Positions 1,494-30,209 of a DNA stretch of 64,000 bases are shown piece by piece (position 1 is the first letter of the stretch; each line of letters opens with the position of its first letter). The stretch spans positions 1 to 64,000 of the IMG/VR virus record IMGVR_UViG_3300042509_001467, one strand, 5' to 3'. Under the pieces are notes generated by a model. That model had not been told where the DNA came from, ran no database searches, and saw only the letters and a program-made list of their open reading frames with translations. Source of the DNA: a virus. Made by a program: the position numbers and the translations under genes.

Positions 1494-4400
1494 GTCAAAC
1501 CCCATTTGAAAAGACGTTCGGGCTAAACGTGCCTAAAGTGAAAGAGGTTAAGCCAACCGCGCCTACCACAAAGCCAAAAGCGCAAGACGATGGGTTTAAG
1601 AAGCTGCTCAAAAAGAATGAGGCTGATAAGAAGAAAGGCGAGGCTACGTTACCTAAGAGCAAGGATGTTAGACCTAGCCGTAAGGATTTTCAAGACTCCA
1701 CGCCCCAAATGAAGGCGTCTAACAATCGCGGATCAAAAACTCCTGCGGTTGATATGCTTAAACAAGTAAATAGCACAGGAGCGGTTAACCCAAGTAGCTT
1801 TGCCGATACATTCACGGGCAGAAACATTCGGTTTGGTCAGCCTATTACTCCTGAATCCGGGTGGACGCTAAACCGCCAAATTGCAGAAGGTGGCAGAAGC
1901 ACCATCGAAGCAGAAATGCACTCCTGGGACATTAAAAACTTTGGCGTAGCTACGTTTGGTGACGTAAACAACGTACCAAAAGACAAACGGGCATTGTGGC
2001 AAGCACGGCAAGCGCACCAAGCGAGAGCGCAGCGCATTTTGGACGGTGGGGTTGATCCTGCTCCTGTACGCGACCCTGCTAACTACCCTGGAATTGACGA
2101 AACCCTTTTAAGTTCACTTTCTGCCAAGCCACCGATGTCATACGCAGACACCGCACGGGCAACGGTGAAGGCTCAACAAGAAGCGCAAAGATATTTACAG
2201 TCTGATGCGGAAACGCGATCTAACCAAGACCTTGTAAAACTGTTTGGGGATAGGTCAAGACGTGGGTCAACTTTCGATCCAAGAGTAGACGCAGGTACTA
2301 GACGCCAAATTGGAAGTAATCAAATGGATGCGGTTGCTAGTCCATTTGAAGCTGAAAACAACGATCCAATCTCTCGCGCTATAGGTATGGCTGGCGTTCA
2401 ATCAGTTAGCCCACTTACAGGACTTACTATGAGCATTGCCAACGCTGGTGATGTGCTTGCCGGGCGTGAACCACGGGGAACGAGAGATATTGCGTCCTTT
2501 TTAGCTAAAACAACTCCTGGCATCGAAGGCATGAGCGACGCGGAGCTTTACGGACGTGCGGCGGCTTCTCCACTTACGCGATTCTTCCAAGAACCCGTAT
2601 CGTTTGCTCGTGCTGGAACTGGCGATACAAGAATGTCCGACGAGCTTTCAGGGCTTGGCGCGGGTGCAGAGTTCATTGGCAACATCATCCCGCAAATGGC
2701 GGCTGGGGCGGCAACGGGCGGTGCTTCACTTGCTGGAAAGGTTGCGGCTGGAGTTTCGCTGGACTTGATCCCGATTGCTCAGATGGTTCAGGACATGGGC
2801 GGCATTGAAAACCTTCCAGCCATGGGTCAGCAGCTTGTCGAAACAGCTTTTAATCCTAACGCTCCCGAAGGTGCAAGGGTTAACGCTATCGCCACGCTTG
2901 GGATGCTTGGTATTGGGGCTACCGCTGGTGGTGTCGCTGGTGCAAAGAAACTCGCAGGGGGCGGCAAGAGCGTTCCTGCTCCAAGGGTTGCGGACGTACA
3001 ACCATCACCAATTGCCGAGATTATCAATCAACGGGCGACTTCAAAGGCTAATGAAAACTTACCGACGCCAACGTTCCGCAAACCACGCGCTACAGCAAGC
3101 GAAAGCGTTCCTGTTCCAACATTCCGCAAGCCACGACCACGCATTGATTTAGGTGATGCGGATGTTATCCCAACACCAGCAAAGCCGCAACCTAAAAAGA
3201 AGGGTAGTAAAGCAACCGCGCCTAAGAAAGAACTTTGGCAAATGACGCGAGACGAGGCGTATGGTGATGCGACAAGGGGCAACCCGGAAGCAATGGAAAA
3301 GGCTTACATTGAGCATAAAAACGCAGTTGTTGAAGCCATCCGTGAAGGTAAACCCGTGCCGAAGGAAGTTTTACGGCAATACGCTGGGCTTGCTCCCCAT
3401 CTTTTAACTAAAGCTGAATGGGCAGAATCAGACCGCATGGGATACACCGATTACGCATCCATCACCCCGCATAAAACTTGGGTTGAGAAAGCATTAAAAG
3501 CGGGTAAAGAAGTGCCGCCTGACGTGTTAGCCGACTACCCTGATCTTGCGGCTAAATATGCAACGCAGCCGCCAGCAGAAACCCCCCAACCACGCGCTCA
3601 GTTTAGCGATGCGGATGTTTTACCGACGTCAACCCGAACACAGGCTAGAAGGGGCGTAGAACAGCCGGAAACGCCAAAGGTTGAGCCAGATTCTTCTCCT
3701 GATTACTACCACGGGACAAGAGCAACGTTTGATAATTTCAATGATGATTGGACATGGTTTGCCCCTGATGAAAAGGCGGCAGAGCATTACGCTGGTAAAA
3801 CTGGAACAGTTAAAAAAGCTAAATTAAAATTTGACAACCCGTTTGTAATGGAAGACCCAAGGGCGCACAGGGCCGCGCTAAGAAATGCGCTGGATGAAGG
3901 GTTCAAAACCCTTGAAGACTGGGCTGATTCAAAGGGTTACGACGCGCTTATCATGAAAAATGTAGACCCTTTAACAAAAGGTGATTACGTGGTGGTAAGA
4001 GGGTCAAAAAATATCATAACGGATGCGCCTAAACCCCAGCCCCAATCGTTCGGTGATGCGGACGTATTACCAAAGCCACGCGCACAGAAGAGTGAGGCGA
4101 AGGTTAAGCTAAGCAAGGCTAAACCTGTACTCGAAGAAGGGCAAGGTGGCGTCCCATACTTCCAAAAGCTCGGGGCAATGGACGCCGCTGATCCAGCAAG
4201 AAAGCGGATGCGCGCAGTCCCAAACAACTACAAATTGGCGTATTCCCGAGCATGGTGGGACGCAAAGCGGTCATTGCGGGAATCCGCTCAACCAGCACCT
4301 AAACCAACCCAAACCCGCGCATCCTTCACGCCAAAAGAGGCAACGGAATACGCTTCTGGTGAGGCTCCTAACTTGGTGGGGATGGCGAAGGGCGAGCTTC

Positions 4401-7400
4401 CGGTTGAGGCGGTGAAGGCTCCTAAAAGCCCATTCCCTGCACCTGCTAGGGCAAAAGGTCTTGGGTTAAACGCTACGGTGATTTACCCTGCTAAAGTTGG
4501 CGGGAAGTTCTCTGACCCAGAAATCGCTAACATTAAAGCATGGGCAAAGGATAACGGGCAGATGGTTACGTCCGCGTCTCCAACCAAGATTGTGTTTAAC
4601 GGCGACGTTGGCGATTCTCGAAAGATTGCCGCAATGGTCGCTGAGGCAAAGCCGCCTACAAAAGCTCAAGTTGCAAACGCAGAAAAGATGAAGGCTTACA
4701 AAGAAGGCATTGCCACGAGAGCCAAGGAAAACGAAGCCGTAATCCAATCCGATGCCGGGAAATGGGTTGAAGACAACTTTGACGAAGGCTTTGCAAACCT
4801 TTTTAACAAAGCCGCGCTGGTTAAATTTCTAAATGGAGAAACGCCAAAGTTTGAAGGGCTTGCAGATTCAAAGTGGGCTGATAGCGTACAAAGACTTGGC
4901 GCGGTCAAAGATGGTCGTGTAGATTTTGACAAACTCAAATCTGAGTATCAGAAATCCAAACCCCCCCAAGAACCACCCGCCGCACCATCAAAGGGCGTCG
5001 AGGCTAAGGGGAAAGAGCCGTGGGAGATGACGCGGGAAGATTTCAAGAAGTCTCCTGCTACTTTTAGCCATGCACAGCCAAATTCAGATTGGGCGTCTAA
5101 TGCCGAAGCAAATGGACTACGGCTTACTGACACGCTTAAAAAGCATTTGCGACCTGACAATGAAACCGCTCTCAACGATGTTCCCGATACAGCATGGGTT
5201 TTACGAGGTGGCGACAACCCTTACGGGAAAAACCTTGCTTTGTTTGATGGGGCTAACGCAAAAATTTTAGTTGAGGGGACAAAAGAGTTTCGAGAAATTT
5301 CAAAAGGATTGCGACCTGCGGCAATTAGAAACCAGACAGCCGCACCTGATATTGTTGCTAGGGCAAAAGCGCGAGGGTATGACGCTGTTGAGTTTAAGGG
5401 TTCAAACATTGGAACTGTTGTCATCAATAACAAAAAGTTTGTATCGCACCGCGCCGCAGTCGAAGCCGCCCTCAAGGAAGGCAAGCCCGTACCCGCCGAG
5501 GTTCTTGCCGATTACCCTGATTTGGTGGCTAAGGTAAAGCCCAAAGAATTACCGGGGGATGTTGCGCCGGAAGCAAGCCCGGTTAAGGCTATTCGGGACG
5601 CGCACGTTATCCCAGATAAGACAGATCGTATTCCAATGCCTGATGCTTGGAAGGGAGAGAAGGTAAGTAATGTTTCAGGACTTCGCCCTAGCCAAGCCAA
5701 GTTCTTGGGCGATGAAATGTTAAAAAGCGTTGAAGATGGTTCCGTTGGCTCAAATAGAAAAGGCGGGATCATTGGCAAGCGGTTTAAGGAAACCGTAGAA
5801 ATCAAGGTTCCTGGTGATGGCACTTGGAAGTTTGCACAAGGCGCAACTGCTGATGAAATCTTTAAGCGTATTGGCTATGATCCTGATACTGCAACGACTA
5901 AAGCCCCAAGCCGCGCAGGACTAGGCGACCCATACTCGTTCAAGATTACGGGCAAGGAAGAAACAGGCAGCACCTTTACGACTAAGGAGCTTGAAGACTA
6001 TACAACGGGGCGCGTAAAAAAAGCGGTTGCAAAGTCTATAGCCGAAGGTGAAAACCCAGATTATTTAGACACTCAGTCTTTAAGTCTTTTTGAACCAGCA
6101 TTGCAAAAAGCGCAAGATCGCGTGGATATGCTGAACACGCGGGTCAATAAATTAAACGATCAACTTAGATCAAGGGGCTACGGTAAACAGGCAAAGGAAA
6201 TGACCAAAGTTGATCTTGCCGATACCGAAGCAGAATTGCTAAAGGCTAAGGGCGCAAGAGACACCGTAAAGCAATCGGCAATAAAAAATGCAGTTGCTTA
6301 TGCCAACAAGGAATTCCCTACCGCCGAATACGTTCAAGGCCCATTCCCGCGATCTTCCGATAATCAGCCAATAGCAGAAACTAAAAGCAAGGCTACATAC
6401 GAAATTACCAACTTAGAAAGCCTCTCGCGTGGCGTTGGAGCTAAGTACATCGTCGGGGTTGAGTCCCCTGACGGTAAATCTCTTGTTGCTTACAAGTGGT
6501 CGCGCTCGGCTGATGCAGAATTGAAATCAGGTCAAGTTATGGTTGACCTAAACGGCGTAGAGGTTAAGCGATACACCCCAACCGCACGTCAAGCCAAAGG
6601 CGCAAAACTTAAAGAGACATTCCAGAAGTTCACCGACGAAGACGTTATCATCGGCATCAACCAAAAGAAAAACCGCGCATCAGTCGCACGTATCAACCCC
6701 GAGAAAGTGAAGCTATTGCGTCAGCTTGCAAAGGACGCGGCAGAGTACGGGATTGCAACGCTTGACGAGTTCGTGGATTACGTCGGCGGCATGGTGGATA
6801 GCGCGTCGGATCAAACCAAGAAGATATTTAAGGTCGCGGCAAAGCAGGTTTGGGAGGCTGAGAAGGGTAAGGCGGCTCCGGTTGCTGAGGCTACAAGCCC
6901 TAAAGGGGCTACCGGGCTTGCCAACCGGGTAAATGATGCTGAGGCTGCTACAGGATCACTCAGCGCGTCACCTAAAGGCAAAGGGGTTAAGAAAGGCACT
7001 GGTCAGGCTGAAGGCAAAAGGCAAGTGCAAACCGGAGAAGTAAACCCGTCGGTGGTTGCTAACGACATAGCCCAAAAGCAACGTGCGTTTGCTAACGAAG
7101 TTGAGGTTGGCGTTCTCATGGAAGGGAAGCGGCAACTGGTTAATGCCCGTGATTCCGCTCGTGCGGCATGGGATAAAGCTATTGATAGTAAAGGCGACAC
7201 AACCTTTGCCAAACAAGAGTTTGATAAGGCTCAGGCAGAGCTTGATGACTTTGTAGGCAAGGTGCAGACAGCCAAGACCAAGACCTCAGATGCGTTTAGA
7301 GCGTTGCAGGAAGGCACTCGGCTAGAGGATGGATCGTTTGACGACATTCTTGACCACTACGCCCGGAAGAACAACAAGAAGCGCAGCGACCTAGACCTGA

Positions 7401-10087
7401 ATTCCAAGGACTTGGTTGAGCTTAAAAAGGCTGTAGAGGCTCGGGATTCTACAATCAAAAAACTTGAAGAAATGATTGCAAAGAAGGAGTCGGCTAAGGT
7501 TGAGTCTGGGCTTGCGATTGCTCGTGGTCAGGCGCGTAGTCGTGGACCTCGTACAAGAGAAGCTATTCGTACAGATATGGATGCGGCTAAGGCTAGGTTG
7601 AAAGAATCTGTCAAGAAGAGTTTAATAGCTGATTCAAGCGTTGCTGGTTCAGGTTTTGGTGCGCTTGGAGGCAACTTCCAGGCACTAGCAAAGAACGCTC
7701 CAGAAGTGGTAAAGGCAATTAAGGACATTGTGGTTCTGACTATTGAAGACCTAAACGTTCAGAGGCTAGACAAGACGTTTTATGATGCCGTCCGCAAAGA
7801 GTCTGAAATGGATTTGTCAGATTCTGACATTCGACAGGTAATGGCTGGATTCTACAATCCAAACCCGGCTCCAATAACGGAACTGAAAAAACGAATTAAC
7901 TCCCTTAAAACCCAGGCGCGAATCCTAGAGGAAATCAAGGGCGTTAAAGATGGAACGCCGATTGAAAAGTCTGTTAGCAGAACCAAGCCAGACGCGGAAA
8001 TCCAAAAACTCAAAAAGCAACTAAGCGATTTGACAAAACCTGAGCGTGAAGCAAAGGCAAAGCAAGCGACGGTTGCGCGGCGCATCGCCAAGCTGAACAA
8101 GGAAATTTCGCTCATTAAAAATGGTGGGACAATCACCCGTAAAACTCCTGGTGCAGTAGACCCACGGGTTGCCAAACTGCAAGCCGAACGCGCAAGGTTG
8201 GTAAAGATACGCGATCTAAAAGCAGAAATCAAGGCGCGTGAGGCTGGCACGTTTAAGAGCAAGCCTAATCTATCCACTCCTGTCACTGACGTTGAAATCA
8301 ATACGCTTCAAAAACGGATTAGCGAATTAAGAGCGGTAGAGACTGATGCAAAAAGACGCGCAATGCTCACGGCAAAAATTAAAGAGCTGCAGGGCATGAA
8401 GCAAAGCGGGGCGAAAAGAACGTCGCAACCGCGCAAGCCATTTACAAACCTTGATCTTCGCGCAATTAAAGATTCTTTGGTTAAAGACCTTGCACTTAGA
8501 GATACCATCACAGACCTAGAAAGTCAACTGGCGTCGGGCAACTTCGCGGTAAAGCCGCCGAAAGAAGTACGGGAATTGACCATTGAGCAAGCCAAGCTTC
8601 AGAAGCGAGTGGACGATTTGCGTAAACGAATCAAGATGATGGTCAAGCTCAATGAGCCTAAAACTCCTGCCGATAAACTTGCTGACTTTGTTGGAGCAAG
8701 CGTTCTGTCAAACCCAGTAGCCCGTGCCTTTGACCTTGCCGCTAACACCGTCAAGCTAGGGTCGTATCTTGCCACAAACGGGCTTCGAGTGCCTATGCAC
8801 GTTGCTATGGATCGCTTATTCCTAAAAGGCGTCTCTGGAGGCGGCGAGAGGTTAATCACAATCCGCAAGCTTAGAAGAGCAATGGAAGGCTATGGCGCAA
8901 CTGTTAGAGAGGAATCAAGCCAGAACATGAAGGGCATGGACCCTGATAGCGCATCAAAGTACGGACGTGGTTCGTTTGTAGCCCGTGCTACAGGGATGAC
9001 TGATATTCCGTTCAAAGAGTTTTACAACCGCCTTGCCTTAGACGATATGGCGTCTGCGATTGCAGAAAAGGAGCTTGGCAGACGCGCTCCAAAGGCAGAC
9101 CTAGACTACCGAATCAGGGAGCTAATCCAAAATCCTACGGATGAGATGGTAGCCGTTGCACACGATTGGGCTTTGCGGCAGACGTTCAACATTGATAACG
9201 TGTTTGGAAAGTTGCAACGAAACATTGTCACTTCGCTTGAAGAGCTTGGCAGGGCGGGCGGTGGCGAGGCTGGAAAAGCGTATGGCAAAGTTGCAGGAAT
9301 TATTTTAGAAACGCCTTTCAGGTTTTCTAAAGTGATTGGAAACGTTGCTTTAGATAGGTTGAACAGCAACCCGGTAGCCGCCGCTGTTGAATCTAGTATG
9401 AGGCTTGCTTCAATGGGAAAATATGGTTATTCTCCAAAACAAGCTCGTCTGATTGCTGATATTGCGGCAAAGGGATTAACGGGCATGGCTCTTACTTATG
9501 CTGGTCAATATGCTTATGAAAACGGAGCTTACGATCCTGAGTTAATCAAAACCGAAGGCGGGACGATGTTCTTTGACTTTGGCAAGATTGCTCAGATTGG
9601 AGGTCCACTGGCTCCATTTATGTTCGGGGCGGCAATGCGAAAGATTGAAGACCTTGACTTGACAGAAAAGCAAAAGTCCGCACTACGATTCAAGATGACG
9701 GTTGACATTTTAGCCGATCAACCTACGTTTTCGGGGGCTAAACGTGTTTCGCAAGCATTGGAAGGCGAAAAGGGAGCGGAGAAATTTGCGGGGCAAGTAA
9801 GTTCTACCCTTGTACCGTTCTCTGGGTTCCTTGGAGAATGGGCTAGGCAGCAAGACTCTTACAAGACAAAGCAGGAATACCAAAAAGAGCGGCGCGTAAA
9901 ATCTGATAGCTTTACCGACGAGTTCAAAAAGAAAATTCCGTGGCTTCGTGAGACATTGCCTGATGCAAAGTTTACTAAGGTAGGCAAAAGCGGTAAGTCG
10001 TCTAGCCAATCTGCATCACCAACGCCCACCGACTTCTCTAACATGACCAACGAGGAACTCATGCGGATGTCTGGCGGCACGAACTGA
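1490..10087 (+). CDS. Giant (2865 aa) polyvalent internal virion/ejection protein with ADP-ribosyltransferase-like domain(s)
   Basis: YYHGT...WF...A..YA...KLKFDNPF...GYDALI ART-like domain (~3704-4018); three W(E/Q)MT...H..V..A..GK.VP..VL..Y modules; long coiled coils; N-terminus similar to 43785..48893. Confidence 0.75.
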   Translation: MSQTPFEKTFGLNVPKVKEVKPTAPTTKPKAQDDGFKKLLKKNEADKKKGEATLPKSKDVRPSRKDFQDSTPQMKASNNRGSKTPAVDMLKQVNSTGAVNPSSFADTFTGRNIRFGQPITPESGWTLNRQIAEGGRSTIEAEMHSWDIKNFGVATFGDVNNVPKDKRALWQARQAHQARAQRILDGGVDPAPVRDPANYPGIDETLLSSLSAKPPMSYADTARATVKAQQEAQRYLQSDAETRSNQDLVKLFGDRSRRGSTFDPRVDAGTRRQIGSNQMDAVASPFEAENNDPISRAIGMAGVQSVSPLTGLTMSIANAGDVLAGREPRGTRDIASFLAKTTPGIEGMSDAELYGRAAASPLTRFFQEPVSFARAGTGDTRMSDELSGLGAGAEFIGNIIPQMAAGAATGGASLAGKVAAGVSLDLIPIAQMVQDMGGIENLPAMGQQLVETAFNPNAPEGARVNAIATLGMLGIGATAGGVAGAKKLAGGGKSVPAPRVADVQPSPIAEIINQRATSKANENLPTPTFRKPRATASESVPVPTFRKPRPRIDLGDADVIPTPAKPQPKKKGSKATAPKKELWQMTRDEAYGDATRGNPEAMEKAYIEHKNAVVEAIREGKPVPKEVLRQYAGLAPHLLTKAEWAESDRMGYTDYASITPHKTWVEKALKAGKEVPPDVLADYPDLAAKYATQPPAETPQPRAQFSDADVLPTSTRTQARRGVEQPETPKVEPDSSPDYYHGTRATFDNFNDDWTWFAPDEKAAEHYAGKTGTVKKAKLKFDNPFVMEDPRAHRAALRNALDEGFKTLEDWADSKGYDALIMKNVDPLTKGDYVVVRGSKNIITDAPKPQPQSFGDADVLPKPRAQKSEAKVKLSKAKPVLEEGQGGVPYFQKLGAMDAADPARKRMRAVPNNYKLAYSRAWWDAKRSLRESAQPAPKPTQTRASFTPKEATEYASGEAPNLVGMAKGELPVEAVKAPKSPFPAPARAKGLGLNATVIYPAKVGGKFSDPEIANIKAWAKDNGQMVTSASPTKIVFNGDVGDSRKIAAMVAEAKPPTKAQVANAEKMKAYKEGIATRAKENEAVIQSDAGKWVEDNFDEGFANLFNKAALVKFLNGETPKFEGLADSKWADSVQRLGAVKDGRVDFDKLKSEYQKSKPPQEPPAAPSKGVEAKGKEPWEMTREDFKKSPATFSHAQPNSDWASNAEANGLRLTDTLKKHLRPDNETALNDVPDTAWVLRGGDNPYGKNLALFDGANAKILVEGTKEFREISKGLRPAAIRNQTAAPDIVARAKARGYDAVEFKGSNIGTVVINNKKFVSHRAAVEAALKEGKPVPAEVLADYPDLVAKVKPKELPGDVAPEASPVKAIRDAHVIPDKTDRIPMPDAWKGEKVSNVSGLRPSQAKFLGDEMLKSVEDGSVGSNRKGGIIGKRFKETVEIKVPGDGTWKFAQGATADEIFKRIGYDPDTATTKAPSRAGLGDPYSFKITGKEETGSTFTTKELEDYTTGRVKKAVAKSIAEGENPDYLDTQSLSLFEPALQKAQDRVDMLNTRVNKLNDQLRSRGYGKQAKEMTKVDLADTEAELLKAKGARDTVKQSAIKNAVAYANKEFPTAEYVQGPFPRSSDNQPIAETKSKATYEITNLESLSRGVGAKYIVGVESPDGKSLVAYKWSRSADAELKSGQVMVDLNGVEVKRYTPTARQAKGAKLKETFQKFTDEDVIIGINQKKNRASVARINPEKVKLLRQLAKDAAEYGIATLDEFVDYVGGMVDSASDQTKKIFKVAAKQVWEAEKGKAAPVAEATSPKGATGLANRVNDAEAATGSLSASPKGKGVKKGTGQAEGKRQVQTGEVNPSVVANDIAQKQRAFANEVEVGVLMEGKRQLVNARDSARAAWDKAIDSKGDTTFAKQEFDKAQAELDDFVGKVQTAKTKTSDAFRALQEGTRLEDGSFDDILDHYARKNNKKRSDLDLNSKDLVELKKAVEARDSTIKKLEEMIAKKESAKVESGLAIARGQARSRGPRTREAIRTDMDAAKARLKESVKKSLIADSSVAGSGFGALGGNFQALAKNAPEVVKAIKDIVVLTIEDLNVQRLDKTFYDAVRKESEMDLSDSDIRQVMAGFYNPNPAPITELKKRINSLKTQARILEEIKGVKDGTPIEKSVSRTKPDAEIQKLKKQLSDLTKPEREAKAKQATVARRIAKLNKEISLIKNGGTITRKTPGAVDPRVAKLQAERARLVKIRDLKAEIKAREAGTFKSKPNLSTPVTDVEINTLQKRISELRAVETDAKRRAMLTAKIKELQGMKQSGAKRTSQPRKPFTNLDLRAIKDSLVKDLALRDTITDLESQLASGNFAVKPPKEVRELTIEQAKLQKRVDDLRKRIKMMVKLNEPKTPADKLADFVGASVLSNPVARAFDLAANTVKLGSYLATNGLRVPMHVAMDRLFLKGVSGGGERLITIRKLRRAMEGYGATVREESSQNMKGMDPDSASKYGRGSFVARATGMTDIPFKEFYNRLALDDMASAIAEKELGRRAPKADLDYRIRELIQNPTDEMVAVAHDWALRQTFNIDNVFGKLQRNIVTSLEELGRAGGGEAGKAYGKVAGIILETPFRFSKVIGNVALDRLNSNPVAAAVESSMRLASMGKYGYSPKQARLIADIAAKGLTGMALTYAGQYAYENGAYDPELIKTEGGTMFFDFGKIAQIGGPLAPFMFGAAMRKIEDLDLTEKQKSALRFKMTVDILADQPTFSGAKRVSQALEGEKGAEKFAGQVSSTLVPFSGFLGEWARQQDSYKTKQEYQKERRVKSDSFTDEFKKKIPWLRETLPDAKFTKVGKSGKSSSQSASPTPTDFSNMTNEELMRMSGGTN

Positions 10088-23768: not shown

Positions 23769-24145
23769 TTGGCGATAAGGTTCTGGAAGTGTCCGGCGTC
23801 TTTGACTTTGAGCATATCGGTCATGATCCGGTCTAAGAAGTCATGCGACTCTTCTGCCGTTACCCTCTTCCAGTCCCGCATATTCTCTAGCCCTACTTGC
23901 GGTCGAAAGATAAAGCCCGTATGGGTGCATCTCAGGGTGATTGTGAACTGGTCTGGCTTCGGCATCTTCATCTTGATTGCAACCATTTCGACCCCGGCAA
24001 CCTCAAAAGACTCCATGACCGAGACGGGTATGACCTTAGCCGTGTCCTCCATCCAGTGCAGGTCGCTCACTCTTGGAACGGGCAAGTACGTCAAACCGTA
24101 CTTGCCTAACCCTATCTCACTAATGCCCTTTACGATTCCGTTCAT
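23741..24145 (-). CDS. Hypothetical protein
   Basis: ORF in a tightly packed leftward operon. Confidence 0.6.
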   Translation of the reverse strand: MNGIVKGISEIGLGKYGLTYLPVPRVSDLHWMEDTAKVIPVSVMESFEVAGVEMVAIKMKMPKPDQFTITLRCTHTGFIFRPQVGLENMRDWKRVTAEESHDFLDRIMTDMLKVKDAGHFQNLIAKWREAGWRL

Positions 24146-24552
24146 ATTTGCCCCCCGAATGTGTAATCCACGTTACCACACTTCTCAGCGATCATTGCTA
24201 GTGCTTGCATTAAAACCTGCTCATGCTCTGGCATATCTTTACCTTGTGCGTTATTGACGGTCTTCCACCATTCTGAGTACCTTTGATCTATCGCCCTCAG
24301 TGCGCGTGGCTCAATCGAGCTTAACCTGCATATCTGGTGCGCTGAGATTCCTAGCCCCTGCGCGAGACGGCAAAAGCGGTACTTGAATGGGGTAATGCTA
24401 CGCCTGGCGCGTCTGCTTGCGGTGTTGTGCAGCTCCCACGGGTACTTCTCGTCGGGGTCATTGTGCGGGTGGTGGTTTAAGAATTGCTCCCACTCTCCAT
24501 CATTCATGCTCATGCACAATGCCGTTATGATTTGGTTCGGCATCCCGTTCAT
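24142..24552 (-). CDS. Hypothetical protein, possible HTH
   Basis: LAQGLGISAHQICRL; ATGA overlaps. Confidence 0.55.
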   Translation of the reverse strand: MNGMPNQIITALCMSMNDGEWEQFLNHHPHNDPDEKYPWELHNTASRRARRSITPFKYRFCRLAQGLGISAHQICRLSSIEPRALRAIDQRYSEWWKTVNNAQGKDMPEHEQVLMQALAMIAEKCGNVDYTFGGQI

Positions 24553-25040
24553 TTTATTCTAAGCACCTCCGTTTGCTCTCCGAGCTTGACGCCTGGAACG
24601 TCCTCACCAGCGGCTAGTGCCGCCTTGATTGCCGTCTTGTCCCAAGTCGGCTCCATCTCCTTCATGTACTGGATTGGAATGACCTTTGGGTCTAGAATCT
24701 CCAGCGGTGCGGCTCCTGCCTTGCCTACTGTGAGGGTGAAGCGGTTGGTTTGCACCTTTGGTCTATCTAGTGCGATCATCGCTCCCTTGATCCGCTGCTC
24801 CATGAAGTCGGCTAGTTTTTGCACCGCTTTTGCCTTATCTGCAAAGAATTTGGATTCTGCCTTGAACTTCTCGGCGTCGCTCTCGGCGTTTCGCATGACG
24901 TAAACGCACCCTTCGAGCTTGGTTTCCAGGTCGCCCTCCATGCCCGCCAGGGTGTCGTCGAACGTTTGCTGGTCAATGTCGCCAGCTTCCAGCATGGCGA
25001 CCAGTTGTAGATGTTGCTCTGTTATTTCGTATAGGTTCAT
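24549..25040 (-). CDS. Siphovirus Gp157-family (Gam-like) protein
   Basis: MNLYEIT...DTL...K...DKTAIKAALAAGEDVPGVKL...LRIK. Confidence 0.88.
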   Translation of the reverse strand: MNLYEITEQHLQLVAMLEAGDIDQQTFDDTLAGMEGDLETKLEGCVYVMRNAESDAEKFKAESKFFADKAKAVQKLADFMEQRIKGAMIALDRPKVQTNRFTLTVGKAGAAPLEILDPKVIPIQYMKEMEPTWDKTAIKAALAAGEDVPGVKLGEQTEVLRIK

Positions 25041-25393
25041 AGTGCCTCCTCCTTTATTTTAAGTCCTTTTTCTATCCTCTTAGCGTTGTATGACGCTAGG
25101 CGCGTCCTTGCCTCGTCAATTCCTGCTCTTAGTGCCTCTTGCTCAGTCAAAAATAACCCGTGGCTACGTGCGATCTTTTCTGCCTCGACTTCGCTTGTGC
25201 TTGCTCCAAACATGGTGCTTGCCCCCAGGTTGATTACAAACGCCCAGTTTGCGTTTGATCTCTTATGTATTGCGGTGCAATGCGACTTCTCCACTACGAC
25301 GAAGAAGTGTCCAACTTTTGCAGCGTGGTGCTTGCGGTACTCCTTCTTGGTTGTGGTTCTGAATGTAAATCCTTCAATTGCTTGTGTTTTCAT
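25037..25393 (-). CDS. Hypothetical early protein
   Basis: ORF track; operon overlaps. Confidence 0.6.
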   Translation of the reverse strand: MKTQAIEGFTFRTTTKKEYRKHHAAKVGHFFVVVEKSHCTAIHKRSNANWAFVINLGASTMFGASTSEVEAEKIARSHGLFLTEQEALRAGIDEARTRLASYNAKRIEKGLKIKEEAL

Positions 25394-25536
25394 AGTTCAT
25401 GTTCTCCGATGTATCGTAGAGTCTCCCCGGTTTCCCGGGGTTCTCTTAGGTATTGCAGGGTTGCTGTGATCGTGCCGCAAATTACTGCGAAGAGTGCGAC
25501 CAGTACGATCAGGTCTGTCATTTTTTGGTTTTTCAT
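25390..25536 (-). CDS. 48-aa single-TM protein (not in the ORF track)
   Basis: MKNQKMTDLIVLVALFAVICGTITATLQYLREPRETGETLRYIGEHEL; ATGA overlaps at both ends. Confidence 0.6.
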   Translation of the reverse strand: MKNQKMTDLIVLVALFAVICGTITATLQYLREPRETGETLRYIGEHEL

Positions 25537-25904
25537 GGTTGGGTTTTCTCCGGTTTGTATAGTCCCATAACATAGTTATATTCATCATCGCTGACTGGGA
25601 TATCTTGCTCACTCATATTGTCTAGCCCAAGACATAGGATTGATTGAATCTCTTGCATCACCTCTGGCGGCAGCTTGCCGACATTCTCACCTTCTAACCT
25701 GATTAGAACATTGTCGCCTAACCCAGTCTCATCATGCGGCATATCCCAGTACCCATTAAGGTAGTAATCGTTAGGCTCAAGGCAATACACCCGCACTCCT
25801 GCAGTAATTGCGTCCTGCTCTTCTTCGTCTGATGTAAAGCAGAAGTTCTCGCACTCCTTTTCTTCATGCAGGTACTTGTAGTCGTCAACGTCGTATATTT
25901 TCAT
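25533..25904 (-). CDS. Hypothetical, very acidic early protein
   Basis: D/E-rich ORF. Confidence 0.6.
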   Translation of the reverse strand: MKIYDVDDYKYLHEEKECENFCFTSDEEEQDAITAGVRVYCLEPNDYYLNGYWDMPHDETGLGDNVLIRLEGENVGKLPPEVMQEIQSILCLGLDNMSEQDIPVSDDEYNYVMGLYKPEKTQP

Positions 25905-26317
25905 GCTGGTTCTCCGTTTTGAAACATCTTAAACTCTGCCCCATGGTCCAGGTAATCGAGGCTCTTAGATAAATCCTCCCTGATTTCTGCGTCGTAGTCG
26001 CGCTTAGATTTTACGTGAGATTCAAGGTATGCCCCTTCTGATTTCTCATCAAAATCATATCTAGCGCAGGTCTTGAGTGCCATTTCAAAGCTTCCGAGAT
26101 GCCCGATATGAACGTCAATTACCTCATGTCCGCACTCACGGGTGTAGATGTCTTTTAGCTCAAACGCTTGGCACTTTCCGTCATCGTTTCGCGATATGTA
26201 GTACTTGCCAAACATTAGACAATCGTCTTTAATCTCAACCTGGGTCGTCTTAATACCCATAAGTGCCGTGTACCTTTTTGCGGTGTTGATCTCTTCGTTA
26301 GTAAATGTTTTGTTCAT
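25901..26317 (-). CDS. Hypothetical early protein
   Basis: AGGATAG RBS. Confidence 0.65.
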   Translation of the reverse strand: MNKTFTNEEINTAKRYTALMGIKTTQVEIKDDCLMFGKYYISRNDDGKCQAFELKDIYTRECGHEVIDVHIGHLGSFEMALKTCARYDFDEKSEGAYLESHVKSKRDYDAEIREDLSKSLDYLDHGAEFKMFQNGEPA

Positions 26318-26330
26318 TGTTTTCTATCCT

Positions 26331-26391
26331 GCTATGAGTTCGGCATAGCTCCCTAGAATCTTTGGACTCTAGGCAACCCTGCCGGGGTTGC
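26331..26391 (-). ncRNA. Intergenic triple-hairpin RNA element abutting an RBS
   Basis: GCAACCC/GGGUUGC, CCUAGAGUC/GAUUCUAGG and GCUAUG/CAUAGC stems in tandem, then AGGAUAG. Confidence 0.5.
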
Positions 26392-26398
26392 TTTACTC

Positions 26399-26629
26399 TT
26401 ACTCTACCGGGGCGCACCCTGGCTTATACATCTTTTGCCACGGTTCATGGCGCATAAACCTTTCGGCGTGGTCAATGTTCATGCCCTTAAACATCCGTTT
26501 CTCTTGGTGCATCCAGATTTTGACTAGCCCAGTGCTTCGGTCTACGAATTCCAGCCACCACCCGCCATGTCGTTTGCCCATCCACTCAAGCTGCAATACG
26601 TGAGTATCATTCTGCTCAATGATCGTCAT
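26399..26629 (-). CDS. Hypothetical early protein
   Basis: ORF track; operon overlaps. Confidence 0.6.
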   Translation of the reverse strand: MTIIEQNDTHVLQLEWMGKRHGGWWLEFVDRSTGLVKIWMHQEKRMFKGMNIDHAERFMRHEPWQKMYKPGCAPVE

Positions 26630-26823
26630 AATTTATTCACCATCGCGCTAGGGTCTAGCCACGGGTTGATACCATCCGCATCCGTGACTCTAAACCTTTC
26701 GAATCCTTGATCTATCGCCCATTTCTTAGCCTCTTCGAACCGTGACCCATCGCCGACGGTGATAACATCTTCTGCCCATTCCGGGTCACCCTTTCGGTGT
26801 CCCCATAATACGAATTCTCTCAT
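26626..26823 (-). CDS. Hypothetical early protein
   Basis: ORF track; GGAGG RBS. Confidence 0.6.
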   Translation of the reverse strand: MREFVLWGHRKGDPEWAEDVITVGDGSRFEEAKKWAIDQGFERFRVTDADGINPWLDPSAMVNKL

Positions 26824-26996
26824 AGTTCCATTGCCTCCTGCTCTCTCGATTGTTGCACCAGGTCTGCCGCATCGAAGAGGGGTTGAAATTGGCGCGTCAT
26901 CTCTGCCGCCATTTGGTCATTGATTGCCCTCTTTGCGTCTGCCGGGTTTAACCCGGCATATACGGTCTTTTGGTTTATGATAATCTCAATTCTCAT
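26820..26996 (-). CDS. 58-aa hypothetical early protein (not in the ORF track)
   Basis: MRIEIIINQKTVYAGLNPADAKRAINDQ...; ATGA overlaps at both ends. Confidence 0.55.
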   Translation of the reverse strand: MRIEIIINQKTVYAGLNPADAKRAINDQMAAEMTRQFQPLFDAADLVQQSREQEAMEL

Positions 26997-27190
26997 GCCT
27001 TCGCCTCATCAGCATTGAATAGCTTCACGATCTGGCACTCTGCACCAGGTGCGAAGCACCTTTGCCCTAAGCTGCATCCGGTAATCGGACGCCATAGCTC
27101 CATCATTGACCATTGGCTAGAGTCCCAATCCGATCTAACGCGCCACGCGTGATTCTTATACTTCACGATTGAGCCGCTTGGAATAATCAC
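26993..27190 (-). CDS. Hypothetical early protein
   Basis: GTGA overlap; GGAGG RBS. Confidence 0.55.
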   Translation of the reverse strand: MIIPSGSIVKYKNHAWRVRSDWDSSQWSMMELWRPITGCSLGQRCFAPGAECQIVKLFNADEAKA

Positions 27191-27285
27191 GCTCTGAACC
27201 TCCTGGCGATTCTTCGAAGTTTGAGGGTGCTGATCTTGGTCCTGTTAACGTGACCTTTGCCTTGATATGTTTTGATTGTATCCAT
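27187..27285 (-). CDS. 32-aa basic peptide directly downstream of the twister ribozyme
   Basis: MDTIKTYQGKGHVNRTKISTLKLRRIARRFRA; GAGGATAG RBS. Confidence 0.5.
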   Translation of the reverse strand: MDTIKTYQGKGHVNRTKISTLKLRRIARRFRA

Positions 27286-27293
27286 GTGTCTAT

Positions 27294-27344
27294 CCTCACT
27301 CTCTATTTTCACGGGCTTGTGACCGTCCATGGCTAGATTAAGGG
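27294..27344 (-). ncRNA. Twister self-cleaving ribozyme (type P1)
   Basis: CCC UUAA UCUA GC CAUGG ACGG UCAC AA GC CCGU GAAAA UAGA GA GUGA GG: P2 UCUA/UAGA, P4 ACGG/CCGU, pseudoknots UCAC/GUGA and GC/GC, conserved UAA cleavage loop. Confidence 0.88.
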
Positions 27345-27369
27345 TGCCAGGTGCTAACCTGGCATAGTG

Positions 27370-27786
27370 TTACTTGATCTTTGAGAGTGTCCAGCCATCC
27401 TCAGTCTTGCCATTGAATGTCTGCTCTAGAGTCCAGCCCAATTCTTTAAGCGCGTTGATCACTGATGATTCACCCGCTGCCGAGGTTCGCGCGATCTTGT
27501 TATGCTCATCGCTTCCATGAGTGTAAATCCATCTTAGAAAATCTGCCATGACTGCCGAGGTCTTGCAATACCCATACCCGCTGGCATACGCTACCTTTTC
27601 GCCTCGATGGTTACTGATTCGCGGGCATGACCCCCAGGTACTAGACTTGTTGTAGCTGATTGCGAATCCGGCGCGTCCAGTGCCGTACTCTGAGTTGATT
27701 TGATTTACTAACACTTGCGCGTATTCTTGTGCGCGTAATTCAAGCGTCGTTAGTTTAGGTGTTTTGGTTGTTGTTGTATCGCTCAT
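27370..27786 (-). CDS. Hypothetical early protein
   Basis: SSTWG..P and ASGYGYCKTSA motifs; AGGATA RBS. Confidence 0.7.
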   Translation of the reverse strand: MSDTTTTKTPKLTTLELRAQEYAQVLVNQINSEYGTGRAGFAISYNKSSTWGSCPRISNHRGEKVAYASGYGYCKTSAVMADFLRWIYTHGSDEHNKIARTSAAGESSVINALKELGWTLEQTFNGKTEDGWTLSKIK

Positions 27787-27822
27787 TTGGTTTATCCTTA
27801 GTCTTGATTGCTGGTCATTGCG

Positions 27823-28077
27823 TTAGTTTTGTACGCTCATGTGGTCACTGTAGCTGCTCAGATACTCCTGCAGGTACTCAGGGTCATTATCACGCTTTGC
27901 GGCCGCTATCTCTGAGCGAATCTCTTCCATGTCCCCGGCATCGTCTATAATCACTGAGCGTTTACCCTGGCTGATTTGGTAGTAATGGCATCCGAACCGG
28001 TTTACTAGCTTAACTGTATATTTGGTCTTAGGTCGCGCCACTGTAAAGAGTGAACCGTTCAGGTATTCCGGTGTCAT
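27823..28077 (-). CDS. Hypothetical early protein (start MTPEYL)
   Basis: ATGA overlap with the upstream gene. Confidence 0.55.
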   Translation of the reverse strand: MTPEYLNGSLFTVARPKTKYTVKLVNRFGCHYYQISQGKRSVIIDDAGDMEEIRSEIAAAKRDNDPEYLQEYLSSYSDHMSVQN

Positions 28078-28519
28078 ACAACACCCCACATCTCTTGCCC
28101 GTCCACGTACAATGTCATATTGCCATGATCTGAGACCACCAGGTAAGTACCCGATGGATCGTCTGGCAATTCGTCGCACTTGATCAAATCGCCATCGTAA
28201 ATGTCATGTTCTAGACTCTCTTGGCTGATCCAATACCCGAAGTCTGAACCATCTCCCTCATGCGCTCCAAAGTACGCGTATGGTGGTGCAATAGCGTTCA
28301 TCTCATCGAAGAGAATGTCATTCAGGTACTCGTCCAGTAGGTCATCGTCCCCAACCTCCTCATCAGTTAGGCGATTCAATGCATCCTGAATCTCTTCGGG
28401 TAGCGTGAAGGATGAATTGTACTCTTTGAGTACGTCCACGAAGTCAGGAATGAGATCGGCTGCGATGTGCGTACCATGTGAGATGGTGCCGAGTGGTGCG
28501 AATTGTTTTGATCGTGTCA
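28074..28519 (-). CDS. Acidic hypothetical early protein (start MTRSKQF)
   Basis: ISHGT...DLIP and YFGAHEGDGSDFGYW motifs; GGAGG RBS. Confidence 0.7.
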
Positions 28520-28729
28520 TTAAAATAGTCCTCCAAATTGGCAATGCTGCCGCATCTCTTTTTCGCTCATGGGCTCGCAAGTCATGCGCTCGATTGTTTC
28601 TAGGCATGATTGGTCCGACTTTTGGGACCAGAAACGCTTTAGATCGTCTAGGTCCTCTTGGTAAAACCTGCTGCCGGGAGTGAGATGCTTCGAAGCTAGT
28701 TTAAAAGCTTTTTGCTGTAATCGTGTCAT
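28520..28729 (-). CDS. First gene of the leftward early operon, hypothetical
   Basis: Follows the extended -10 promoter and a GGATA RBS. Confidence 0.6.
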   Translation of the reverse strand: MTRLQQKAFKLASKHLTPGSRFYQEDLDDLKRFWSQKSDQSCLETIERMTCEPMSEKEMRQHCQFGGLF

Positions 28730-28766
28730 TTTGGTTATCCATGCAGCTCGCCGAGCTACGTTTAAG

Positions 28767-28775
28767 ATATTAGCA
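28767..28775 (-). promoter_or_regulatory. Extended -10 promoter of the leftward early operon
   Basis: TG-C-TAATAT about 40 nt upstream of ATG 28729. Confidence 0.5.
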
Positions 28776-28890
28776 CAGTATTTTCTAAACTGTATACTTC
28801 CGGTATCCTATTTTGTGCAAGTCAGGTATTTATACTGTATTCACTGAATACATTTATATTCAGATTTTTTTGTTTTTTGGAATATGAGCT

Positions 28891-28911
28891 TATTGCAAAC
28901 AATTTGCAATA
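28891..28911. promoter_or_regulatory. Operator-like palindrome
   Basis: TATTGCAAA-CAA-TTTGCAATA, a perfect 9-bp inverted repeat in the AT-rich divergent control region. Confidence 0.5.
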
Positions 28912-29320
28912 GTGTGATCCGACAATAAGCCAAGACGCCATTTGGTACGCGCTTCCAACCTTGTACCTATCCCTAGAAGTTCCGGCGCAGCTTTGTACCT
29001 TTTCTTGCGTGTATATAGTGTGTGGTACGTTTGTCTACACGTTTTACGTTAAAATTAATTCGTTCGATTTCCTAATTGTTGCGTGTGCAAGTATTTAGGT
29101 AGGGGGTACGGGGGACGAGCGGTTGAATTGTAGGGTATGTACCCCAACACATATGCCGACCTATTTTCAATTACCCCTTGCTCGTACCTACTCTCGATCT
29201 CAAGTTCAATTCAGCCTACGTAGCGACAGCGAATGTAGGCGTGTATTTTTCTTTTGAACCTAAATCAAGTGCCATAACGTTATTCCAAGACTTTATTTAA
29301 AAACCTGGTAATTTTAACAG

Positions 29321-29349
29321 TAGACAAGGTTTTTTTTACCGGGTATATT
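29321..29349 (+). promoter_or_regulatory. Sigma70-type promoter
   Basis: TAGACA-17 bp-TATATT. Confidence 0.65.
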
Positions 29350-29355
29350 CCTTCC

Positions 29356-29535
29356 TATACAGACTGAGCGATAGCTTAGTCTGCCCGCGACTAGCGGGAG
29401 CCGCACCAAGCTCCGGATTACAAGCTTTCACCCACGCCCTGCTAATTCGCAGGGCGCAAGAAGCAAGCATAGTAGTTTAGCGTAAGTACAATAGGATGCT
29501 TAAAGTGGATGCTCAAAGTGAAGCTACGCCTGGAT
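29356..29535 (+). ncRNA. Candidate structured ncRNA or late-operon leader
   Basis: Consecutive stems CAGACTGAGC/GCTTAGTCTG, CCCGC/GCGGG, CGCCCTGC/GCAGGGCG and AAGCAT/ATGCTT, enclosed by CCAC/GTGG and AGCT(T)TCAC/GTGAAGCT, right after the promoter. Confidence 0.5.
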
Positions 29536-29609
29536 GTTTACCTTAGTTGTATACGGGTATTTACGAGTAATTAGAGTCTTTTAGGGGTTGTGACTCGTTC
29601 TTAGAGTTA

Positions 29610-30209
29610 ATGGGAGAATTAACACCAAGACAGAGGGAGTGGCTTGAAGAGGTGGATATGCCTAAGCCTGAGTCTATTAACACAGGGCGTAGCCCTGCTA
29701 GTAGGCAACTCTTGATTACAAGGCTCGGTCACCCTAGTGAGTTCTATACTACTAAGTGCGGGGTTGTGCAGCCAGGCTTACTGGCTGACCGGATTGTGAC
29801 TCGGAGTGTTGGACCCTTTCGGGTGACTGGGCTTGATGTTGCGGTTGCTTGTCTTGCTTACGCTATGAAGCGGGTCAAGCAATATGAGTCAGAGTTGTAC
29901 GGGATTCTTGGAAGTGCCGGGATGCTCTGCGTTCGCATGGTGCGCGGGGGTAACTCGCCTAGCATACATAGCTGGGGATGCGCTATTGACATCTTGATTG
30001 GCGGGAAGTTAGACGACTATGGAGACGGCAAGACCCTCAAAGGCTTGTTTGTCCTCCATCAGTACATGAAGCAGGAGGGTTGGTACTGGGGCGCGGAGTT
30101 TCGTAAAGAGGATTCGATGCACTGGGAACTAGCCAATGACAGGTTGCAGACCTTACTCTCTTTGAGAGGTAAGGAGTTGCGTGACTACATCGCGGGAAGT
30201 AAAACATGA
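29610..30209 (+). CDS. Endolysin, M15-family zinc peptidase
   Basis: R..RG...SIHSWGCAIDI and WGAEF...DSMHWE motifs. Confidence 0.88.
   Translation: MGELTPRQREWLEEVDMPKPESINTGRSPASRQLLITRLGHPSEFYTTKCGVVQPGLLADRIVTRSVGPFRVTGLDVAVACLAYAMKRVKQYESELYGILGSAGMLCVRMVRGGNSPSIHSWGCAIDILIGGKLDDYGDGKTLKGLFVLHQYMKQEGWYWGAEFRKEDSMHWELANDRLQTLLSLRGKELRDYIAGSKT

What the first reader, a model, noticed from the sequence alone, without database searches (positions are those of the whole stretch)
27187..27364. Twister ribozyme in the early operon whose 3' end overlaps the RBS of a 32-aa basic peptide
Seen: all twister elements are present (P2, P4, both pseudoknots, UAA), with predicted cleavage between 27340 and 27339. 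The T1/P1 strand GUGAGG overlaps the GAGGAUAG ribosome-binding site of the next ORF, and a strong hairpin (27345-27364) caps the upstream fragment. Inference: self-cleavage processes the polycistronic early mRNA, and folding may gate translation of the downstream genes.
Basis: partly seen in the sequence, partly recalled or inferred. Interest (0 to 1): 0.7.

Follow-up and report, generated by a model that had tools for sequence, protein, structure and literature searches.

The report
Minimal twister ribozyme in phage operon
A lake-water phage carries a very probably genuine self-cutting "twister" RNA between two of its early genes; it is one more member of a large, already recognised kind that standard RNA catalogues score just below threshold, and whether it actually cuts has not been tested.

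Summary
Window 27344-27293 (minus strand) matches the whole Rfam type-P1 twister model (RF03160): 52 bits, E 1e-8 for the whole window. That is below the gathering score of 67.2, but only because the optional stem P3 is missing. P1, P2, P4, both pseudoknots and the conserved nucleotides are present. The middle pair of T1 is changed on both sides (C-G to A-U). More than 112 IMG/VR phage contigs carry the same P3-less design, with strong covariation. All 14 that I scored fall below Rfam's threshold.

The usual layout in relatives is stop codon, P0 hairpin, twister, Shine-Dalgarno (SD) site, start codon.

The most likely role is co-transcriptional cutting of the polycistronic early mRNA. The upstream product would end in a hairpin, and the downstream product would begin with a folded 5'-OH end. 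Here the SD of a real 32-aa gene lies inside T1/P1 and should be freed by cleavage, but only 13 of 74 relatives share that overlap.

This is a new member of a known kind, and this scan has reported phage twisters with P0 many times on other DNA. Cleavage and expression are untested; no RNA data were available.

The parts
27370..27786 (-). Upstream gene, 138 aa, no family. Its stop codon is TAA at 27372-27370, 30 nt before the cleavage site.
   Evidence: ORF list. No Pfam or PHROG hit. A paralog with 41% identity lies elsewhere in the same record.
27345..27364 (-). P0 hairpin: 8-bp stem UGCCAGGU/ACCUGGCA with loop UAGC. After cleavage it would be followed by a 5-nt tail (CCCUU).
   Evidence: Fold. 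Relatives have an equivalent hairpin: 34-nt upstream MFE at or below -8 kcal/mol in 73% versus 11% of control windows. P0 is named as an optional twister stem in PMC5408937.
27293..27344 (-). Type-P1 twister ribozyme without P3 (52 nt). Predicted cleavage is between U27340 and A27339.
   Evidence: RF03160, 52 bits, full model, E 1e-8 for the window. Covariation in 74 relatives.
27341..27343 (-). P1 5' strand (CCU). It pairs with 27296-27294.
   Evidence: Rfam alignment. P1 pairs covary in relatives.
27334..27337 (-). P2 5' strand (UCUA). It pairs with UAGA at 27305-27302.
   Evidence: P2 is fully paired in 98 of 100 relatives, and all four of its pairs show changes on both sides.
27311..27326 (-). 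P4 (ACG/CGU) with loop L4 GUCACAAGCC. L4 holds the T1 strand CAC (27321-27319) and the T2 strand GC (27316-27315).
   Evidence: The outer P4 pair covaries: A-U 42, G-C 14, C-G 9.
27297..27299 (-). T1 3' strand GUG. Its middle U27298 pairs with A27320, a change on both sides relative to the Rfam consensus C-G.
   Evidence: The middle T1 pair is Watson-Crick in 100 of 100 relatives, with all four pair types seen.
27293..27297 (-). Shine-Dalgarno GAGGA of the 32-aa ORF. It overlaps the last T1 base (G27297) and the P1 3' strand (27296-27294).
   Evidence: Sequence. Unpaired probability 0.02-0.03 before cleavage and 0.74-0.9 after, in a nested model.
27187..27285 (-). 32-aa basic peptide gene (MDTIKTYQGKGHVNRTKISTLKLRRIARRFRA, pI 12). 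Its stop codon overlaps the GTG start of the next ORF.
   Evidence: Seven nucleotide differences in a variant contig give one residue change in this frame and 5-6 in the other frames. A variant with C at 27330 removes the alternative ATG of the 47-aa reading.
26993..27190 (-). Next ORF, 65 aa. Its GTG start overlaps the peptide's TGA and has its own AGGAGG. It opens a run of small overlapping ORFs.

Best explanation
The stretch is a functional type-P1 twister self-cleaving ribozyme of the minimal design (P1, P2, P4, T1, T2, no P3 or P5), preceded by the optional P0 hairpin. It sits in a 78-nt spacer between a 138-aa gene and a 32-aa basic-peptide gene, in the minus-strand block of small, non-structural phage genes.

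As the polycistronic RNA is made, the ribozyme should cut between U27340 and A27339. The upstream product would then end in the 8-bp P0 hairpin plus a 5-nt tail with a 2',3'-cyclic phosphate, which is a poor substrate for 3' exonucleases. The downstream product would begin with a 5'-OH buried in the compact twister fold, a poor substrate for 5'-end-dependent RNases.

The module would therefore punctuate the operon without any host RNase and uncouple the stability of the two halves. In this copy, loss of the 3-bp P1 partner strand would also free the SD of the peptide gene.

Shown here: the match to the family, covariation, and the conserved layout. Inferred: cleavage itself, the fate of the products, and the effect on translation.
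For: Match to the family:
- Full-length RF03160 match, E 1e-8 over the window; it is the only hit at E<=0.1.
- Every conserved consensus nucleotide is present. The T1 middle pair is changed on both sides.

Relatives and covariation:
- More than 112 IMG/VR contigs hold the same P3-less design. These give 100 unique copies in 74 flank groups.
- In 74 aligned copies, 88% of cells are paired versus 70% after shuffling. The covariation score is 0.467 versus 0.121, reached by 0 of 500 shuffles, and slid controls score 0.05-0.12.
- The G before P4 is invariant although the search pattern did not require it.

Published support for the design:
- P3 is optional and present in 78% of twisters. The crystallised O. 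sativa twister lacks P3 and P5. P1 is dispensable for cleavage (PMC5408937).

Layout in relatives:
- The median distance from an upstream same-strand stop codon to UAA is 31 nt. An SD plus start codon follows within 60 nt in 46 of 74.
- Upstream hairpin: median MFE -10.7 versus -3.5 kcal/mol in controls, p 8e-26.
- The 3' tail after the hairpin is 0-7 nt in 61 of 63.
- The hairpin goes with a same-strand ORF ending within 60 nt: 40 of 45 versus 11 of 23, p 6.5e-4.

Other:
- A paralog of the upstream gene in the same record is followed by a type II hammerhead whose own stem III would cap the upstream product.
- mRNA processing is the published hypothesis for bacterial twisters (PMC6765202).
Against: - The score is below Rfam's gathering threshold (52 versus 67.2).
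- P1 has only 3 Watson-Crick pairs, with a C-A mismatch at its end.
- No transcript, cleavage or end-mapping data exist for this or any related copy.
- The protective role of P0 is my inference. For the analogous hatchet P0, the authors state that its role is not apparent (PMC4604424).
- P0 could instead aid folding or stack on the short P1.
- The hairpin statistics do not separate 'protective end' from 'any hairpin that commonly follows a gene'.
- Homologs of the upstream gene in two other phages have no ribozyme after them, so the module is not tied to that gene.
Confidence: 0.8

Rival explanations
1. The main job of this copy is translational control. The folded, uncut ribozyme hides the SD of the 32-aa peptide gene, and with it the translationally coupled genes behind it. 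Only cleavage and release of the short 5' strand allow ribosome binding.
For: - SD GAGGA 27297-27293 lies in T1/P1.
- A nested fold gives unpaired probability 0.02-0.03 before cleavage and 0.74-0.9 after.
- 13 of 74 relatives also have an SD starting in the P1 3' strand.
- The peptide gene is real by its substitution pattern and overlaps the next start codon.
Against: - 61 of 74 relatives put the SD outside P1; of these, 40 have a detected SD further downstream and 21 have no detected SD plus start. Masking is therefore not a conserved feature.
- P1 here is only 3 bp, which a ribosome can open.
- G27297 stays in T1 after cleavage.
- No ligand-binding or switching element is present, so cleavage would be constitutive.
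- The purine-rich P1 3' strand is part of the general twister consensus and resembles an SD by default.
Confidence: 0.25
2. The ribozyme module is mainly a conserved linker at which phages swap gene cassettes. The nearly invariant ~35-nt core gives unrelated phages a patch of homology.
For: - Lake metagenome contigs keep the twister but diverge from the window exactly at 27285, or keep the 32-aa gene but diverge at 27295.
- L005 and L018 share the upstream flank and the twister but differ from about 10 nt after it.
- After the hammerhead of the paralog, a 99-aa gene is present or absent between two copies of a 17-nt SD-plus-start repeat.
Against: - A direct test found no clear excess of homology breaks across the twister: 0.157 versus 0.105-0.139 at control points 300-450 nt away.
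- The metagenome contigs are short and of low depth (2-5x).
- This idea does not explain the conservation of the catalytic structure.
Confidence: 0.07
3. The match is a decayed or chance twister look-alike that no longer cleaves.
For: - The score is below the gathering threshold.
- P1 is short, with a terminal mismatch.
- There is no experimental evidence of cleavage.
Against: - E 1e-8 over the whole window.
- All conserved positions are intact.
- The A-U variant of T1 is the majority form among P3-less phage copies, 92 of 100.
- All 14 scored P3-less relatives fall at 50-61 bits, so the shortfall comes from the architecture and not from decay.
- P1 is dispensable for activity.
Confidence: 0.07

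Closest known systems
Type-P1 twister ribozyme (Rfam RF03160; Roth et al. 2014 as reviewed in PMC5408937), in particular the minimal O. sativa form without P3 and P5
   Same: P1-P2-P4 nested stems, T1 and T2 pseudoknots, conserved loop nucleotides, U-A cleavage dinucleotide, open ends in P1, and the optional 5' stem P0.
   Different: It has no P3, a minority design since 78% of annotated twisters have P3. As a result it and all 14 scored P3-less phage relatives score 50-61 bits, under the gathering score of 67.2. The middle T1 pair is A-U instead of the consensus C-G. P1 has only 3 pairs.
Hatchet ribozyme with its P0 hairpin (PMC4604424)
   Same: A non-conserved hairpin sits a few nucleotides 5' of the cleavage site in about 90% of copies and is dispensable for catalysis. 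It occurs in the same kind of metagenomic or phage-like setting.
   Different: It is a different catalytic fold, with no sequence or structural relation to the ribozyme core here.
Type II hammerhead ribozymes next to phage genes (Rfam RF02276; D. vulgaris examples in PMC8782182)
   Same: The intergenic position is the same, between a stop codon and the next SD. A paralog of the upstream gene in this very record is followed by one (26.7 bits, E 0.0017 in a 301-base search; all core motifs visible).
   Different: It is a different ribozyme class. There the ribozyme's own stem III would cap the upstream product, rather than a separate P0.
RNase III processing sites between phage T7 early genes, and the synthetic ribozyme insulator RiboJ (own knowledge, not tested here)
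   Same: It works like them. The operon RNA is cut between cistrons, a hairpin is left at the 3' end of the upstream message, and the downstream message gets a defined, structured 5' end.
   Different: It needs no host enzyme, unlike the RNase III sites, and it is natural, unlike RiboJ. The chemistry leaves 2',3'-cP and 5'-OH ends. This is a resemblance in function only, not membership.

Membership tests
Twister ribozyme, type P1 (RF03160) | Stem P1 closing the motif, with the 5' and 3' ends in P1 | tested here: met
   There are 3 Watson-Crick pairs (27343-27341 with 27294-27296) and a terminal C-A mismatch. The four inner P1 pairs covary in 74 relatives. P1 is dispensable for cleavage according to PMC5408937.
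Twister ribozyme, type P1 (RF03160) | Stem P2 of 4 base pairs | tested here: met
   UCUA pairs with UAGA. P2 is fully paired in 98 of 100 relatives, and every P2 pair shows changes on both sides.
Twister ribozyme, type P1 (RF03160) | Stem P4 with the conserved loop GUC-N-CAAGCC | tested here: met
   ACG pairs with CGU, with loop GUCACAAGCC. The outer pair covaries.
Twister ribozyme, type P1 (RF03160) | Pseudoknot T1 between L4 and the strand 3' of P2 | tested here: met
   CAC 27321-27319 pairs with GUG 27299-27297. The middle pair is Watson-Crick in 100 of 100 relatives: A-U 92, U-A 4, C-G 3, G-C 1. It scores 100% paired.
Twister ribozyme, type P1 (RF03160) | Pseudoknot T2 (G-C dinucleotides of the junction after P2 and of L4) | tested here: inconclusive
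   Both GC dinucleotides are present (27333-27332 and 27316-27315). They are invariant in all copies and were fixed by my search pattern, so no covariation can be seen. The T2 assignment rests on my recollection of the published structures.
Twister ribozyme, type P1 (RF03160) | Highly conserved nucleotides, including UAA at the cleavage site and GAG-N-G | tested here: met
   All upper-case consensus positions of the Rfam model match, except the covarying T1 pair and one position of the UAAA linker, which is variable among relatives.
Twister ribozyme, type P1 (RF03160) | Score at or above Rfam's gathering threshold (67.2 bits) | tested here: not met
   The score is 52 bits. The shortfall equals the deleted optional stem P3. 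Fourteen of 14 other P3-less copies score 50-61 bits. This is a curation cut-off, not a biological feature of the class.
Twister ribozyme, type P1 (RF03160) | Site-specific self-cleavage giving 2',3'-cyclic phosphate and 5'-OH ends | not testable with these tools
   No RNA run holds this DNA. No biochemical assay was possible.
Twister ribozyme, type P1 (RF03160) | Optional stem P0 5' of P1 | tested here: met
   An 8-bp hairpin lies at 27364-27345. An equivalent hairpin is enriched in relatives. P0 is listed as optional. I could not read the primary paper that defines it.

The most novel reading that the evidence does not exclude
The P0-twister-SD unit is a host-independent 'operon punctuation' device. 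One cut gives both products protected ends. In the subset like this copy, where the SD lies inside P1/T1, cleavage is the step that switches on translation of the gene behind it, here a 32-aa, pI-12 peptide and the overlapping small genes that follow. That would give phage twisters and the unexplained P0 stem a defined job.
Probability: 0.25. Interest if true: 0.6.

Novelty: new member of a known kind. Interest (0 to 1): 0.33.

Why it matters
The biological role of twister and other small self-cleaving ribozymes in bacteria and phages is still open (PMC6765202). So is the role of the P0 hairpin next to the cleavage site (PMC4604424).

This copy adds no new class. It does belong to a large P3-less phage subclass that default Rfam annotation misses, since all scored copies fall below the gathering score.

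The measured layout turns the 'mRNA processing' idea into simple reporter and end-mapping experiments. That layout is a hairpin within 0-7 nt of the cut, a stop codon about 31 nt upstream, and an SD plus start codon about 28 nt downstream. Two cultured Clostridia genomes hold the same design and could serve as test systems.

Tried and rejected
- **Default Rfam scan at gathering thresholds:** no hit. The hit appears only with E-value thresholds.
- **Phage GenBank collection by blastn with the 1-kb locus:** no match.
- **The search for related loci with the 138-aa protein alone:** no relative found. With the two-paralog alignment, 3 loci were found: one with the same hammerhead and two with no ribozyme. 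The gene family is therefore not a ribozyme marker.
- **PHROG and Pfam on ten flanking small ORFs:** nothing useful.
- **Sequencing runs:** 23 lake-water metagenome runs hold the DNA, but no RNA holder is listed, so expression and cleavage ends could not be examined. Laying four DNA runs gave only short, low-depth contigs.
- **Promoter and terminator scan of 24000-30000:** nothing above shuffle expectation. The hairpin is not followed by a U-tract on the coding strand, so it is not an intrinsic terminator.
- **Recombination-linker idea:** homology-break fraction 0.157 at the twister versus 0.105-0.139 at control points, so no clear enrichment.
- **Primary papers:** Roth 2014 and Weinberg 2015 are not held. 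P0 and P3 statements are taken from the review PMC5408937 and the hatchet paper.
- **47-aa reading of the ORF from ATG 27330:** rejected. That ATG lies in the ribozyme linker, has no SD, and is lost in a variant contig.
- **Structured spacer at 26331-26398:** scanned against Rfam, no family found.

Full report
**1. What is there**

The window is part of an 80.7-kb IMG/VR virus record. It encodes a P22-like portal, DnaB-type and SF2 helicases, and a 2865-aa polyvalent protein. Lake-water metagenomes hold the same DNA.

All ORFs between about 13.9 and 28.9 kb run on the minus strand. Those around the finding are small, often overlapping, and have no known family. Calling this an "early operon" is therefore a reasonable inference from gene order, not a result.

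**2. The ribozyme**

Rfam at gathering thresholds finds nothing in the window. With E-value thresholds there is a single hit in 64 kb: twister-P1 (RF03160) at 27344-27293 on the minus strand. It scores 52 bits, covers model positions 1-68 of 68, and has E 1e-8 for the whole window against 4227 families.

The alignment deletes only the 6-bp stem P3. The review PMC5408937 makes four points that bear on this:
- P0, P3 and P5 are optional, and P3 occurs in 78% of annotated copies.
- The crystallised O. sativa ribozyme lacks P3 and P5.
- P1 is dispensable for cleavage.

The missing P3 is thus a known minimal design, and it accounts for the shortfall against the gathering score of 67.2.

The loop triplet reads CAC where the consensus has CCC. 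Its T1 partner reads GUG where the consensus has GGG. This is a change on both sides that keeps the pseudoknot.

**3. Relatives**

- A 19-mer from the core found 34 IMG/VR contigs.
- The same pattern found 33 of 185,579 species genomes, nearly all gut Clostridia or other Bacillota MAGs.
- The IMG/VR loci give 100 unique copies in 74 flank groups.

The middle T1 pair is Watson-Crick in 100 of 100 copies, with all four pair types. P2 is fully paired in 98 of 100.

On an ungapped alignment of 74 copies:
- 88% of cells pair versus 70% after shuffling.
- The covariation score is 0.467 versus 0.121, reached by 0 of 500 shuffles.
- Structures slid by 1-3 columns score 0.05-0.12.

The G before P4 is invariant although the pattern left it free. 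Fourteen of 14 such copies score 50-61 bits, all under the Rfam cut-off. The whole subclass therefore escapes default annotation.

**4. The surroundings**

In relatives, the 34 nt before P1 fold with a median of -10.7 kcal/mol versus -3.5 in control windows of the same loci. The value is at or below -8 in 73% versus 11% (p 8e-26).

Among the 63 copies whose last 45 nt before the cut fold at or below -7 kcal/mol, the upstream product would end 0-7 nt after the last paired base in 61. In this window the tail is 5 nt.

This fits the optional stem P0 of the refined twister consensus. It also parallels the P0 hairpin that about 90% of hatchet ribozymes carry just 5' of their cleavage site, whose role "is not apparent" (PMC4604424). 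I could not read the primary papers.

Other layout figures for the 74 groups:
- The median distance from the stop codon of a same-strand ORF to UAA is 31 nt.
- An SD plus start codon follows within 60 nt in 46 of 74, with the start codon a median of 28 nt after GAGNG.
- The hairpin is present in 40 of 45 copies with a same-strand ORF ending within 60 nt, against 11 of 23 without (p 6.5e-4).

The conserved unit is therefore stop codon, P0, twister, SD, start codon. Some relatives also carry a pistol ribozyme or a second twister a few hundred bases away.

**5. The downstream gene**

The SD GAGGA (27297-27293) lies in the last T1 base and the P1 3' strand, 7 nt before the AUG at 27285. The 32-aa, pI-12 ORF is probably real. 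A variant contig differs at seven positions that change one residue in this frame and 5-6 in the others. That rests on one contig of depth 2.2.

The alternative ATG at 27330 lies in the ribozyme linker and is lost in another variant.

A pseudoknot-free partition function gives the SD an unpaired probability of 0.02-0.03 in the uncut RNA and 0.74-0.9 in the 3' product. Only 13 of 74 relatives have an SD beginning in the P1 3' strand. The overlap is thus a local feature, not the conserved purpose of the module.

**6. Mechanism**

The best-supported reading (0.8) is constitutive, co-transcriptional self-cleavage that divides the operon RNA. P0 leaves the upstream message with a hairpin and a short tail. 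The twister fold leaves the downstream message with a buried 5'-OH.

That mRNA processing is the role of bacterial twisters and hammerheads is a published but unproven proposal (PMC6765202). The protective reading of P0 is my inference.

It gains some support from the same record. A paralog of the 138-aa gene (41% identity, E 5e-29) is followed by a type II hammerhead (RF02276, 26.7 bits against a gathering score of 37, E 0.0017 in a 301-base search; CGAAAC, GUC, CUGAAGA and the loop-tail pseudoknot are all visible). There the ribozyme's own stem III would cap the upstream product.

The rivals are:
- SD unmasking as the main function (0.25, overlapping with the above).
- A recombination linker (0.07; the break test was negative).
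- An inactive look-alike (0.07).

**7. Novelty**

This is a new member of a known kind. The class, the P3-less design, P0, the association with phages and the processing hypothesis are all in the literature.

This scan has already reported phage twisters with P0 on other DNA: 51 findings in at least 43 genomes. What this copy adds is modest:
- A quantified layout for the P3-less subclass.
- The fact that the subclass sits under Rfam's threshold.
- One case in which the SD is inside the ribozyme.

No RNA evidence exists for this locus.

Noticed in passing
L123:2276-2333 (-) = record 64276-64333, just beyond the window's end; paralog gene L123:2333-2719 (-): A paralog (41% identity) of the 138-aa gene upstream of the twister is followed directly by a type II hammerhead with a loop-tail pseudoknot (RF02276, 26.7 bits, below the gathering score of 37). 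Two ribozyme classes therefore occupy the same slot after homologous genes in one virus record.
   Followed up: yes
L123:1900-2275 (-) compared with L124:1884-1960 (+): After that hammerhead, a 99-aa gene sits between two copies of a 17-nt SD-plus-start repeat (AGGTAAAACCAAATGAA). The related phage L124 has one copy of the repeat and lacks the gene. It looks like a cassette gain or loss by recombination between repeated translation-initiation regions.
   Followed up: partly
window 26331-26398 (-): A gene-free spacer in the same operon folds very stably (-31.3 kcal/mol, z -4.56, 0 of 200 shuffles as good). It matches no Rfam family even in a 151-base permissive scan. It ends in AGGAUAGAAAACAAUG, which resembles the SD region after the twister.
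   Followed up: partly
window 27285 and 27295 (lake metagenome contigs laid): One contig keeps the hairpin, the twister and the first four codons (MDTI) and then continues into different sequence. Another keeps the 32-aa gene but has different sequence upstream of 27295 (ending ...CCCGAAAGGGUUCCAAGAGUAGGAAC), possibly another structured element. Both contigs are short and of low depth.
   Followed up: partly
L044:1133-1199 and L081:2863-2931 (pistol); L002:959-1019 (second twister): Pistol ribozymes above the Rfam threshold lie about 480 nt upstream of P3-less twisters in two phage contigs. A second twister lies about 400 nt downstream in another. Consecutive spacers can thus hold different ribozymes.
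   Followed up: no
L007, L013, L030, L031, L034, L055, L091, L095, L103 (twister flanks): One group of P3-less twisters has no P0 hairpin, and most of these have a long P1 instead (the 9-bp class, 8 of 100 copies). These RNAs may not release their 5' product after cleavage, which would be a different mode of use.
   Followed up: no
window 1490-10087 (+): A 2865-aa ORF has an ART-PolyVal (ADP-ribosyltransferase of polyvalent proteins) domain at residues 740-825. It is probably an ejected internal virion protein.
   Followed up: no
L127-L159 (genome contigs): The same P3-less twister pattern occurs in only 33 of 185,579 species genomes. Almost all are gut Clostridia or other Bacillota MAGs, and two are cultured strains: Lacrimispora saccharolytica An817 and Clostridium transplantifaecale Marseille-P8228. 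The window's phage, by contrast, comes from lake water.
   Followed up: no
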